A DNA stretch of 42,883 nucleotides, taken from Escherichia phage LLS. The stretch lies in sequence record PQ299149. One strand, written 5' to 3'. The position numbers were made by a program, and so were the translations under genes. Shown here piece by piece: positions 41,827-42,817 of the stretch (position 1 is the stretch's first letter; every line of letters starts with the position of its first letter). The notes below the pieces were generated by a model. That model searched no databases and was not told the DNA's origin. It saw only the letters and a list, made by a program, of their open reading frames with translations.

Positions 41827-42139
41827 CTTTCTCAATCATGAACATAGTAACCCCCCTTTTGGTGGTTATGTTTTATCTAATATTTTCAATTAGATATATC
41901 ATGTCAGGCTTCTGGGTCTGAACATTTATAGTTGAACGTATACTCTAATATCATAGGTTTATTCTTATTCTAAGTTGATTCAATCTTAAACTTCCTAGGT
42001 AGGAGTACTTGTCCCGTAAAATAATTGGCTATTGTGTAGTAGTGATGTACTATTACCCAGAAGGTAAACAAATAAGTTGCAGTCTGTTTAACTTCCACTT
42101 AAGTCAAAAGACGTCCGACAGCCAAACATGGAGGACGAT

Positions 42140-42772
42140 ATGAGAACTAATAGAACAAGATACGATATGCCATACATCATACCTGAAGCAGATTTCGACA
42201 GAAAACTGAACATGTCAGAGAAAAATGTTACTCACACTGAAGGCTTTCTCGCTAAAGGTGTGCAGGACTTTACTCTGCCTGGGTTTACTACGCCATATGG
42301 TTATCGTCTTGTTAAATCACTCAGAGACGATCACTATAGGTTGATCACTGACAGCGAATCGCCTGAGACCGTGTATGCGGTAAAATTAATCTTCCGAGAA
42401 GACATTGTTGAAACTAGGAAGTCGTGTACTCAAATCCTTGTATGGCGCACGCCAAATGTGATTCACGACCGTGCGGTACATGGTTTACCGCAAGATTTTT
42501 TCCGGTTCTTCTTGGAGCAGTTTGCTATTGTCGTTTCAGATGAGCAGCAAACCATTGATGGACGCAGATTCTGGGAGAGAATGATTTCTTGGGCTATAAC
42601 TACTCCTGGATATCATGTCTATGTGTCTGACGGTACTGAAGAAGAACGTCCACTGACATTTATGACCTCTTGGGATGACTTCTATCAGACTTGGGCTGAT
42701 TTTTGCTGGGGTGCAGATAAAGATGTTCATACGCATCGCTTGTTAGTCATTAGTAAAGATCAGCTCCACTAA
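42140..42772 (+). CDS. AT-rich hypothetical protein (moron between lysis cassette and cos)
   Basis: ORF 42128-42772; ATG at 42140 has GGAGGA upstream; preceded by ~300 bp of AT-rich DNA and followed by a strong terminator; no family recognised. Confidence 0.55.
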   Translation: MRTNRTRYDMPYIIPEADFDRKLNMSEKNVTHTEGFLAKGVQDFTLPGFTTPYGYRLVKSLRDDHYRLITDSESPETVYAVKLIFREDIVETRKSCTQILVWRTPNVIHDRAVHGLPQDFFRFFLEQFAIVVSDEQQTIDGRRFWERMISWAITTPGYHVYVSDGTEEERPLTFMTSWDDFYQTWADFCWGADKDVHTHRLLVISKDQLH

Positions 42773-42790
42773 AGTTTGCCCATTTCGAAA

Positions 42791-42817
42791 AAGCCTCGCT
42801 AAGCGAGGCTTTTTTTT
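42791..42817 (+). terminator. Intrinsic terminator after the right-end moron
   Basis: AAGCCTCG-CTAA-CGAGGCTT followed by TTTTTTT. Confidence 0.8.

What the first reader, a model, noticed from the sequence alone, without database searches (positions are those of the whole stretch)
41827..42817. AT-rich moron of unknown function between Rz/Rz1 and cos
After the spanin genes there is ~300 bp of AT-rich non-coding DNA, then a 211-aa ORF (42140-42772) with a GGAGGA RBS, closed by one of the strongest terminators in the window (42791-42817). The AT-rich leader, own terminator and position match the lambda bor-type moron slot before cos. The protein has no TM segment and I recognise no family. Its composition differs from the backbone, suggesting horizontal acquisition.
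Basis: partly seen in the sequence, partly recalled or inferred. Interest (0 to 1): 0.55.

Follow-up and report, generated by a model that had tools for sequence, protein, structure and literature searches.

The report
Orphan GNAT-like cargo gene before cos
A real, strongly conserved 210-aa gene sits as self-contained cargo between the lysis genes and cos of an Enterobacter lambda-like prophage; its large uncharacterised family has a divergent acetyltransferase-like fold and recurs in phage 'immunity hotspots' and toxin-antitoxin islets, so it is a plausible but unproven phage-host conflict gene.

Summary
After Rz/Rz1 (ends 41826) comes a 313-bp AT-rich gap (GC 0.35), a GGAGGA site 5 nt before ATG 42140, a 210-aa ORF (42140-42772, GC 0.43 against 0.515 for the window) and a strong hairpin plus T-run (42787-42817), 66 bp before cosN. 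The gene is real: dN/dS is about 0.06 and there are 76 close homologues. It is cargo: phages whose lysis genes are 88-95% identical lose homology at 41812 and carry other ORFs there. Only the RBS and ORF are shared between contexts.

Relatives occupy the same three slots as the Tai defence genes (before terS, between tail genes, the ant/immI region) but are unrelated to Tai. Others are single-gene chromosomal islets, lie beside TA modules, are coupled or fused to MqsA-like parts, or sit in replication modules of large phage contigs.

Best guess, with modest confidence: a GNAT-toxin-like effector that protects the lysogen. Function is unproven. This is a new member of a known kind (a moron).

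The parts
41827..42139 (+). AT-rich non-coding leader between the Rz stop and the ORF start (313 bp, GC 0.348). It is context-specific and has no homologue in the phage collection.
   Evidence: Searches give sequence and composition. One search shows that homology with other carriers starts only at 42104-42111. One search finds no blastn match in the phage collection. One search finds only a chance-level promoter-like site at 41925-41954. One search finds a weak hairpin plus U-tract at about 41840-41880 (z -2.0). One search finds no Rfam family.
42130..42135 (+). Shine-Dalgarno sequence GGAGGA, 5 nt upstream of the ATG. It lies inside the ~30-nt stretch (from 42104-42111) that travels with the ORF.
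   Evidence: One search gives the sequence. One search shows that the conserved unit starts at 42104-42111.
42140..42772 (+). Protein-coding gene of 210 aa (24.9 kDa, pI 5.6), soluble. It belongs to PHROG 1349 (unknown function) and has a divergent GNAT-like alpha/beta fold.
   Evidence: -: the ORF.
- phrog_1349, E 4e-105, full length.
- no Pfam, PADLOC or NCBIfam match.
- 76 homologues at 36-100% identity.
- 910 clusters.
- dN/dS about 0.06.
- AF2 pLDDT 82.7.
- GNAT-only structural matches.
- no TM segment.
42787..42817 (+). Intrinsic-terminator-like hairpin (GC-rich 7-bp core extended by A/U pairs, 3-nt loop) followed by T8. The A-run on its 5' side makes it look bidirectional.
   Evidence: -18.7 kcal/mol, z -3.9; 3rd strongest in the window, and also detected on the - strand; in 30 of 36 distinct phage contexts a terminator-like hairpin follows the gene, with at least six different hairpin sequences.
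42818..42883 (+). Spacer between the terminator and the cohesive end. It occupies the position of the cosQ-side of cos; cosN begins at window base 1 (GGGCGGCGCGCT).
   Evidence: Searches show that prophage copy L110 reads straight through from the window end to the window start. Searches place the Nu1-like DUF1441 gene and the gpA terminase next.

Best explanation
The region is a self-contained accessory gene (a 'moron') inserted in the variable slot between the lysis cassette and cos of a lambda-like Enterobacter hormaechei prophage.

Shown:
- It is a real gene under strong purifying selection.
- It moves between phages and chromosomes as a bare RBS+ORF.
- It ends with a strong terminator just before cos.
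- It encodes a soluble protein of a large uncharacterised family (PHROG 1349; about 910 clusters at 50% identity).
- The confident predicted structure resembles only GNAT acyltransferases. The family's conserved polar residues (N29, Y79, Q98, R103, D134, Q137, T138, Y161) fall on the elements that form the GNAT active-site cleft (alpha2, beta3, beta4, beta5-alpha4, beta6).

Inferred:
- The protein is a conflict-system effector related in fold and logic to GNAT-type toxins of toxin-antitoxin modules.
- In the lysogen it is transcribed from a Q-independent promoter in the AT-rich leader. The terminator stops that transcript from running into the packaging genes.
- During lytic growth, Q-modified polymerase coming from pR' reads through the gene and its terminator.
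- Its benefit is protection of the lysogen from other phages (superinfection immunity or abortive infection). It would do this by covalently modifying, probably acylating, a nucleic-acid-linked target such as aminoacyl-tRNA, nucleotides or DNA.

The target, the donor and any trigger are unknown.
For: Accessory status:
- The slot differs between phages with 88-95% identical lysis genes.
- The exact protein always lies Rz-[ORF]-cos-Nu1 in at least 24 Enterobacter contigs.
- Only 42104-42772 is shared between contexts.
- GC is 0.43 against 0.515 for the window.

Real gene: dN/dS is about 0.06, and 76 homologues have conserved length.

Transcription-unit architecture:
- The terminator is strong.
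- A terminator-like hairpin of unrelated sequence follows the gene in 30 of 36 distinct phage contexts, against 9-16% of other ORFs.
- A terminator inside a Q-antiterminated late operon only makes sense for a Q-independent transcript. This is an inference from lambda biology.

Fold:
- AF2 pLDDT is 82.7 and the secondary-structure order matches GNAT.
- BFVD hits are uncharacterised phage proteins plus GNAT/NAT_SF proteins.
- The best Foldseek PDB hits are the GNAT toxins KacT, TacT3 and AtaT, though not significant.
- 133-SDEQQTIDGRRFWER lines up with GNAT motif B of PhnO (...RLDAHRFYERE).

Conflict context:
- The family occupies 'before terS', 'between tail genes' and the ant/immI region. These are the same three slots reported for the Tai defence genes (PMC11364771).
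- A divergent E. coli / E. fergusonii paralogue lies beside a HipA toxin, a TacA antitoxin gene followed by a 171-aa ORF that reads like a TacT-type GNAT toxin (E. fergusonii contig only), and a reverse transcriptase.
- Pantoea-type orthologues lie beside PemK and PIN-Phd modules. In 5 loci of two sequence variants they overlap by 4 nt a 66-68-aa MqsA-like HTH gene.
- One relative is fused to an MqsA zinc ribbon.
- Syntenic chromosomal copies evolve much faster than their flanks: 61% against 90-97% identity in Providencia.
Against: - There is no experimental or homology-based link to any characterised defence, toxin or enzyme. PADLOC finds nothing for the protein or for 95 relatives, and Pfam and NCBIfam find nothing.
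- The canonical acetyl-CoA loop Q/R-x-x-G-x-G/A is not present (111-RAVHGLP), so the protein may not be an acetyltransferase at all.
- In this window the gene is solitary, with no antitoxin-like partner. A constitutively toxic enzyme could not persist that way.
- Genus-wide solitary copies at fixed housekeeping loci (ThiD|X|PagP in Proteus, BamC|X|PurC in Providencia) are unusual for defence genes.
- Distant members sit in DNA-replication modules of 140-235-kb phage contigs. That fits a phage-serving function better than a host-serving one.
- A promoter in the leader is not demonstrated.
Confidence: 0.35

Rival explanations
1. Phage-serving late function. The protein would be a counter-defence or DNA/nucleotide-directed modifying enzyme made from the late transcript just before packaging. 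It would be analogous in logic to Mu Mom, a GNAT-fold DNA modifier encoded at the genome end, and would protect progeny DNA or disarm a host defence.
For: - The gene is co-oriented with, and downstream of, the Q-dependent late operon. It is the last gene before cos, and a DNA methyltransferase lies in the same operon.
- Distant family members (profile E 1e-30 to 1e-42) lie tightly packed next to UvsX, DHFR with a clamp-like protein, DNA polymerase A and NAD-ligase in 140-235-kb phage contigs.
- One relative is fused to a weak SAD/SRA-like module, a reader of modified bases (E 0.002, below the Pfam cut-off).
- The fold is GNAT-like without the canonical CoA loop. From my own knowledge of the literature, the same is reported for Mom.
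Against: - There is no sequence or profile similarity to Mu Mom.
- Solitary copies are conserved in chromosomes far from any prophage.
- The gene associates with TA modules and MqsA-like partners.
- A near-universal private terminator in phage contexts is typical of lysogen-expressed morons.
- Relatives of this phage do without the gene.
Confidence: 0.2
2. Non-catalytic pseudo-GNAT. The protein would act by binding, for example as an inhibitor, antitoxin-like neutraliser, sensor or regulator of a host or phage protein, rather than by catalysis.
For: - The acetyl-CoA pyrophosphate loop is degenerate, and the position of the usual general-acid Tyr in motif B is an almost invariant Trp (W145).
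- One relative has an MqsA zinc-ribbon module, the toxin-binding half of MqsA, fused to this domain.
- Some orthologues are translationally coupled to an MqsA-like HTH.
Against: Polar residues (N29, Y79, Q98, R103, D134, Q137, T138, Y161) are conserved across members that are 21-50% identical to the window protein. They lie on the elements that form the GNAT catalytic cleft, which is more typical of an enzyme or of a specific small-ligand site.
Confidence: 0.15
3. Lysogenic-conversion enzyme unrelated to phage conflict. The protein would be a GNAT-type detoxifying or resistance enzyme (antibiotic, bacteriocin or toxic metabolite) or a metabolic acyltransferase that benefits the host.
For: - The fold is GNAT-like.
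- Solitary copies are stably kept between housekeeping genes across whole genera (Proteus, Providencia, Photorhabdus, Xenorhabdus, Buttiauxella).
- Many characterised GNATs are resistance enzymes (general knowledge).
Against: - Syntenic copies diverge fast relative to their flanks.
- Members occur in large phage replication modules and in TA or defence islets.
- The canonical CoA-binding motif is absent.
Confidence: 0.1
4. Core phage function tied to its position, for example a packaging or cos-cleavage accessory (as the HNH protein next to cos in HK97-like phages) or a lysis accessory.
For: Position only: the gene lies immediately upstream of cos and the Nu1-like/gpA terminase genes and downstream of Rz.
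Against: - Close relatives with the same lysis genes lack it and carry unrelated ORFs.
- The same family sits in tail modules, in ant regions of podophages and in non-prophage chromosomal sites.
- It has no similarity to HNH or terminase proteins.
Confidence: 0.02

Closest known systems
Lambdoid morons in the Rz-to-cos slot (lambda bor; the concept from HK97/HK022 comparisons)
   Same: It occupies the same slot at the end of the late region before cos. It is present or absent between otherwise related phages, has deviant (AT-rich) composition and is closed by its own terminator.
   Different: Bor is a small outer-membrane lipoprotein encoded on the opposite strand (my knowledge of lambda). This protein is a 25-kDa cytoplasmic alpha/beta protein, co-oriented with the late operon, with no signal peptide or lipobox. 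A private promoter is not shown.
Tai (tail assembly inhibition) defence genes, e.g. phi80 orf63 / TaiEcA (He et al. 2024, PMC11364771)
   Same: Both are single genes of about 140-280 aa (Tai, by gene span) and 210 aa here. Both occupy the same three phage hotspots ('before terS', 'between tail genes', the Arc-mnt/ant region), occur across the same Enterobacterales genera including Enterobacter, and were undetected by PADLOC or DefenseFinder when first examined.
   Different: The families are unrelated. TaiEcA and TaiSalA belong to phrog_5483 and carry an R-x4-H motif, whereas this protein belongs to phrog_1349 and is alpha/beta GNAT-like. BLASTP, hhalign and hmmsearch are all negative. No anti-Tai-like partner gene is present, and no activity has been tested.
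GNAT-type toxins of type II toxin-antitoxin systems (TacT, AtaT, KacT)
   Same: - They are the best, though weak, Foldseek PDB matches, and the fold is of the GNAT class.
- Relatives of this gene live among TA modules.
- Some relatives are translationally coupled to a small HTH protein in the toxin-first order seen in MqsRA and HigBA.
   Different: - There is no detectable sequence homology.
- The canonical acetyl-CoA loop is absent.
- The partner, where present, is an MqsA-like XRE HTH rather than the RHH/DUF1778 antitoxin.
- The copy in this window is solitary.
Phage Mu Mom (DNA modification protein with GNAT-like fold)
   Same: Both are about 210-240 aa, both are the last gene of the late region at the genome end, and both have a GNAT-like fold without classical acetyl-CoA motifs (for Mom this rests on my knowledge of the literature).
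   Different: There is no sequence or profile similarity, and no com-like translational activator lies upstream. This family also exists as solitary chromosomal genes.

Membership tests
Phage moron (accessory transcription unit) | Present in some, absent in other, otherwise closely related phage genomes at the same position | tested here: met
   Phi06_2987 S (95% identical from the methylase through Rz) and mEp237 (88% identical over lysozyme-Rz) lose homology at window 41812 and carry other ORFs.
Phage moron (accessory transcription unit) | Nucleotide composition different from the flanking phage genes | tested here: met
   ORF GC is 0.428 and GC3 0.40; the leader is 0.348. The window is 0.515 and neighbouring genes have GC3 0.55-0.61.
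Phage moron (accessory transcription unit) | Own transcription terminator downstream | tested here: met
   The hairpin folds at -18.7 kcal/mol with z -3.9 and is the top-ranked terminator-like site on the + strand. The feature recurs with different sequences in 30 of 36 phage contexts.
Phage moron (accessory transcription unit) | Own promoter, with expression from the repressed prophage | tested here: inconclusive
   Only a 9-of-12 sigma-70-like match exists at 41925-41954, and such matches are no more frequent here than in shuffles. Expression itself cannot be tested with these tools.
GNAT (Gcn5-related N-acetyltransferase) superfamily | Mixed alpha/beta fold with the order b1-a1-a2-b2-b3-b4-a3-b5-a4-b6-b7 | tested here: met
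GNAT (Gcn5-related N-acetyltransferase) superfamily | Motif A pyrophosphate-binding loop Q/R-x-x-G-x-G/A between b4 and a3 | tested here: not met
   The sequence here is 103-RTPNVIHDRAVHGLPQDFF. Only one Gly (G115) is retained, and it is not invariant in the family.
GNAT (Gcn5-related N-acetyltransferase) superfamily | Recognition by curated GNAT sequence profiles | tested here: not met
   No Pfam or NCBIfam acetyltransferase model matches the protein or any of 95 relatives. hhalign against thin PhnO and TacT profiles was uninformative, and the GNAT-versus-GNAT control also failed.
GNAT (Gcn5-related N-acetyltransferase) superfamily | Binds acyl-CoA and transfers the acyl group | not testable with these tools
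   This needs biochemistry.
Tai tail-assembly-inhibition defence proteins | Sequence homology to TaiEcA or other Tai proteins | tested here: not met
   BLASTP gives E above 3 and hhalign a probability of 0.1%. hmmsearch scores are negligible. Tai belongs to phrog_5483 and this protein to phrog_1349.
Tai tail-assembly-inhibition defence proteins | Location in the recognised phage hotspots (before terS, between tail genes, Arc-mnt region) | tested here: met
   This window is 'before terS'. Relatives lie after the gpK-like gene, in baseplate modules and after the Ant gene of P22/epsilon15-like phages.
Type II TA GNAT toxins (TacT/AtaT/KacT) | Adjacent cognate antitoxin gene | tested here: not met
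   No small co-oriented ORF adjoins the gene in the window. A 4-nt-overlapping MqsA-like HTH gene exists only in the Pantoea-type subgroup.
Lambda Bor-type lipoprotein | Signal peptide with lipobox; small outer-membrane lipoprotein | tested here: not met
   The N-terminus MRTNRTRYDMPYIIPEADFD is hydrophilic and the maximum KD19 is 0.79.
Known anti-phage defence systems (PADLOC-DB 2.0) | Match to any defence-protein model | tested here: not met
   There are no hits for the protein. Among 95 relatives there are only two chance-level hits.
Mu Mom-like DNA modification proteins | Sequence or profile similarity to Mom | tested here: not met
   BLASTP gives E 0.18 over 24 residues and hhalign a probability of 0.1%.

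The most novel reading that the evidence does not exclude
PHROG 1349 and its roughly 900-cluster superfamily would be a new single-protein immunity family. It would be a GNAT-fold, TA-toxin-like enzymatic effector that prophages carry in the same hotspots as Tai and that bacteria keep as solitary islets. It would stop infecting phages by modifying a nucleic-acid-linked target, and lytic large phages would have co-opted relatives into their replication modules.
Probability: 0.25. Interest if true: 0.65.

Novelty: new member of a known kind. Interest (0 to 1): 0.42.

Why it matters
If the family is a defence or toxin-like effector, it would add a widespread, compact (one gene of about 630 bp) and so far unannotated system to the immunity repertoire of Enterobacterales prophages. 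Those hosts include clinical Enterobacter, Klebsiella, E. coli K1/ST95, Yersinia, Proteus and Serratia. It would also extend the GNAT-toxin theme beyond the RHH-paired TacT/AtaT type.

It would further strengthen the idea that the lysis-to-cos slot is a general immunity hotspot of lambdoid phages. That makes the slot a cheap place to mine for new systems.

If the protein is instead a late, phage-serving modifier, it would be a Mom-like strategy in a much larger group of phages. Either way, the family (no Pfam entry, about 910 clusters) deserves a curated model and one simple phage-challenge experiment.

Tried and rejected
- Direct annotation failed. Pfam, NCBIfam and PADLOC gave nothing for the protein or for 95 relatives. 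PDB sequence and profile searches gave only chance hits. PHROGs gave only an unnamed family.
- Mu Mom homology was rejected.
- Tai homology was rejected for phi80 orf63 and FSL SP-016 TaiSalA. phi80 gp49 also showed no relation.
- Profile-profile comparison with small GNAT alignments (PhnO, a TacT-like protein) was uninformative, because even the GNAT-versus-GNAT control failed.
- The leader holds nothing recognisable: no Rfam family, no significant fold, no homologue among phages and no above-chance promoter.
- The AFDB Foldseek library was unavailable.
- The second word-indexed protein search with the wide alignment added almost nothing.
- Literature searches for the PHROG id, the E. coli accession and DUF5397 found nothing relevant. 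Two broader searches found no paper on this family.
- 'Core packaging or lysis accessory' and 'Bor-like lipoprotein' were considered and rejected on the presence/absence pattern and on sequence grounds.
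Full report
**What is there**

The window is a cos-linearised lambda-like genome. Its right end carries these genes:
- a DNA methyltransferase (39440-40492);
- a P21-type holin (40563-40778);
- a lysozyme (40775-41314);
- an Rz-like ORF ending at 41826, with an embedded lipoprotein ORF (41576-41722...LLVGC).

Then follow:
- 313 bp of AT-rich DNA (GC 0.348, lowest 1.4% of the window);
- GGAGGA at 42130-42135;
- an ATG at 42140;
- a 210-codon ORF ending at 42772;
- the hairpin AAAAAGCCTCGC-TAA-GCGAGGCTTTTTTTT at 42787-42817.

The hairpin folds at -18.7 kcal/mol (z -3.9) and is the strongest terminator-like site on the + strand.

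In prophage copies the window end runs directly into the window start (...CCTGCCACG|GGGCGGCGCGCT...). Next come a Nu1-like DUF1441 gene and the gpA terminase, so the ORF is the last gene before cosN.

**It is a gene, and it is cargo**

Seventy-six homologues of 36-100% identity and near-constant length occur across Enterobacterales. Pairwise dN/dS against the Klebsiella-type copies is about 0.06, with synonymous sites near saturation.

The identical protein occurs in at least 24 Enterobacter contigs, always in the order Q - variable gene - methylase - holin - lysozyme - Rz - ORF - cos - Nu1 - gpA.

Two phages lose all homology at window 41812 and carry unrelated small ORFs in the slot:
- Escherichia phage Phi06_2987 S, 95% identical across the methylase-to-Rz stretch;
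- mEp237, 88% identical over lysozyme-Rz.

Between the different carriers of the gene, nucleotide similarity covers only 42104/42111-42772, that is, the ribosome-binding region and the ORF. The leader and the terminator are supplied by each context. ORF composition (GC 0.428, GC3 0.40) differs from the backbone (0.515; GC3 0.55-0.61).

**Where else the family lives**

1. P22/epsilon15-like E. coli and Klebsiella podophages, including the prophage of E. coli IHE3034. Here it lies directly after an Ant/BRO-N antirepressor gene, next to the ejection-protein genes.
2. A myophage baseplate module, between the hub and wedge genes, and lambda-like tails, after the gpK-like gene.
3. P1-like elements of Citrobacter, between tail genes and the large SLT-domain protein.
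4. Single-gene islets between housekeeping genes. These are ThiD|X|PagP in six Proteus species, DapA-BamC|X|PurC in Providencia, PTS-IIB|X|Hda in Photorhabdus, X|PhnP in Buttiauxella and X|MetF in Xenorhabdus. In these syntenic sites X diverges much faster than its flanks: 61% against 90-97% identity in Providencia, and 74% against 88-95% in Proteus.
5. Islets rich in toxin-antitoxin genes.
   - A divergent E. coli / E. fergusonii paralogue (270 aa, with a DUF5397 tail; PHROG 1349, E 1.5e-30) sits in such an islet. It lies beside a HipA toxin and a reverse transcriptase. In the E. fergusonii contig it also neighbours a TacA antitoxin gene followed by a 171-aa ORF that reads like a TacT-type GNAT toxin.
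   - Pantoea-type orthologues inside the hrp cluster lie next to PemK or PIN-Phd modules.
   - In five loci of two sequence variants they overlap by 4 nt a 66-68-aa MqsA-like XRE HTH gene.
   - One metagenomic relative is fused to an MqsA zinc ribbon. Another is fused to a weak SRA-like module.
6. Phage contigs of 140-235 kb. Members with profile E-values of 1e-30 to 1e-42 are packed next to UvsX, DHFR with a clamp-like protein, DNA polymerase A or NAD-dependent ligase.

In 30 of 36 distinct phage contexts of the closer homologues, a GC-rich hairpin with a T-tract follows the stop codon within about 20-65 nt. At least six unrelated hairpin sequences are used. Only 9-16% of other ORFs in the same loci have such a feature, and the chromosomal islets show only the background rate.

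**What the protein looks like**

No Pfam, NCBIfam or PADLOC model matches it or 95 diverse relatives. It matches PHROG 1349 ('unknown function') end to end.

An exhaustive profile search finds 910 clusters at 50% identity with E at or below 1e-3, nearly all about 200 aa.

The AlphaFold model is confident (pLDDT 82.7, pTM 0.79). Its element order fits b1-a1-a2-b2-b3-b4-a3-b5-a4-b6-b7.

Structure searches gave the following.
- Foldseek against viral models finds uncharacterised phage proteins, for example from Agrobacterium phage Atu_ph07, and then GNAT/NAT_SF proteins.
- Foldseek against the PDB is not significant. Its best matches are the GNAT toxins KacT, TacT3 and AtaT.

Residues conserved across the wide family are P11, N29, Y79, Q98, W102, R103, F121, D134, Q137, T138, G141, F144, W145, Y161, W190 and G191. 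They fall on a2, b3, b4, the b5-a4 junction and b6, the elements that build the GNAT cleft.

The stretch SDEQQTIDGRRFWER lines up with motif B of the GNAT PhnO (RLDAHRFYERE). The Q/R-x-x-G-x-G/A pyrophosphate loop is not present (RAVHGLP).

I therefore call the fold GNAT-like and leave superfamily membership and acetyl-CoA use open. The protein has no hydrophobic segment and is predicted to be cytoplasmic.

**Comparison with what is known**

The slot is a recognised one. He et al. 2024 (PMC11364771) showed that the Tai defence genes of lambdoid phages lie mostly 'before terS', as does phi80 orf63. Others lie 'between tail genes' or in the 'Arc-mnt region', and several of their examples are Enterobacter prophages. 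The present family occupies the same three kinds of slot.

It is nevertheless not a Tai. TaiEcA and TaiSalA belong to PHROG 5483 and carry an R-x4-H motif. They show no similarity to this family by BLASTP, hhalign or hmmsearch.

It is not Bor-like (no lipobox) and shows no similarity to Mu Mom.

**Interpretation**

Solid conclusions:
- it is a real accessory gene;
- it was horizontally acquired as RBS plus ORF;
- it sits in a variable hotspot;
- it is closed by a strong terminator.

A terminator in the middle of a Q-antiterminated late operon is only useful against Q-independent transcripts. I therefore infer a promoter in the AT-rich leader and expression in the lysogen, with read-through during lytic growth. 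This step is not shown.

For function, five observations point to a conflict-system effector akin to GNAT toxins, most likely one that protects the lysogen from other phages:
- the match with the immunity-hotspot pattern;
- the recurrent company of TA modules;
- the MqsA-like partner and fusion;
- the fast divergence at syntenic sites;
- the GNAT-toxin-like fold.

I give this reading about 0.35. Three things weaken it. The relatives in large-phage replication modules and the SRA-like fusion keep a phage-serving, DNA- or nucleotide-directed modifier alive (about 0.2). The degenerate CoA loop allows a non-catalytic binder (about 0.15). The genus-wide solitary chromosomal copies allow a plain host enzyme (about 0.1). 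A core packaging or lysis role is excluded by the presence/absence pattern.

**Verdict**

This is a well-formed moron carrying a member of a large, uncurated, GNAT-like protein family of unknown function. It is a new member of a known kind, of moderate interest, and cheap to test.

Noticed in passing
window 38611-39273 (+), between Q (ends about 38513) and the methyltransferase: There is a second AT-rich cargo slot: a 220-aa ORF with GC 0.36, no Pfam match and PHROG 18859 (unknown function). In near-identical Enterobacter prophages this position holds different genes: 159-161 aa on the - strand, or 109, 200, 201 or 221 aa on the + strand.
   Followed up: partly
window 39440-40492 (+): An N6/N4 DNA methyltransferase (PF01555, E 8e-43) sits inside the late operon just upstream of the holin. 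It would be expressed with the lysis genes and may be an anti-restriction function.
   Followed up: no
window 40563-41826 (+): The lysis cassette looks like a pinholin/SAR-endolysin type. It has a P21 S-family holin and a lysozyme with a hydrophobic N-terminus ([19 protein letters not shown]). The Rz-like ORF embeds an Rz1 lipoprotein (41576-41722, lipobox LLVGC).
   Followed up: partly
window 1-12 and 42818-42883: The window starts with GGGCGGCGCGCT. As I recall lambda's cohesive end, it differs from it at two positions. The window is a cos-cut genome, and prophage contigs read across the junction.
   Followed up: yes
window about 26285-26345, both strands: This is the strongest terminator-like hairpin of the window (AAAAAAGCCCGC-TTAT-GCGGGCTTTTTT, -22 kcal/mol). 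It scores on both strands, so it may be a bidirectional terminator between convergent units.
   Followed up: no
L122:3366-3980 (-) (phi80 TaiEcA) and L123:1779-2324 (+) (TaiSalA): Both Tai proteins carry an R-x4-H motif (RNDLAH and RNARSH), reminiscent of HEPN-type active sites. Both fall in PHROG 5483, which PHROGs v4 still lists as unknown function.
   Followed up: no
L119:1001-1672 (+), upstream of L119:1679-2341 (+): In one metagenomic contig the ORF directly upstream of a distant family member weakly matches the family profile itself (E 1e-5). This suggests tandem paralogues.
   Followed up: no
L001:8769-8930 (+) and the same position in about 15 podophage contigs: In the E. coli podophages a further tiny ORF follows the gene and its terminator. 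Its product (MKKAFAALFVLLSLVASTQAFA...) starts with a signal-peptide-like segment and may be another moron.
   Followed up: no
L002:5001-5632, L047:~6001-6604, L036:6001-6390, L085:1376-1894: Several copies of the gene are split or truncated. L002 is a frameshift in an 'UNVERIFIED' phage contig. The others are in Morganella psychrotolerans, Photorhabdus akhurstii and one viral contig. This is as expected for dispensable cargo, though sequencing error is not excluded.
   Followed up: partly
L124:6001-6815, L131:4001-4821, L130 and L133 (hrp type III secretion clusters of Pantoea/Erwinia-like genomes): The gap between the secretin (hrcC-like) and export-apparatus (hrcU-like) genes acts as a small hotspot. 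It holds the family member together with an MqsA-like HTH gene, a PemK module or a PIN-Phd module.
   Followed up: partly
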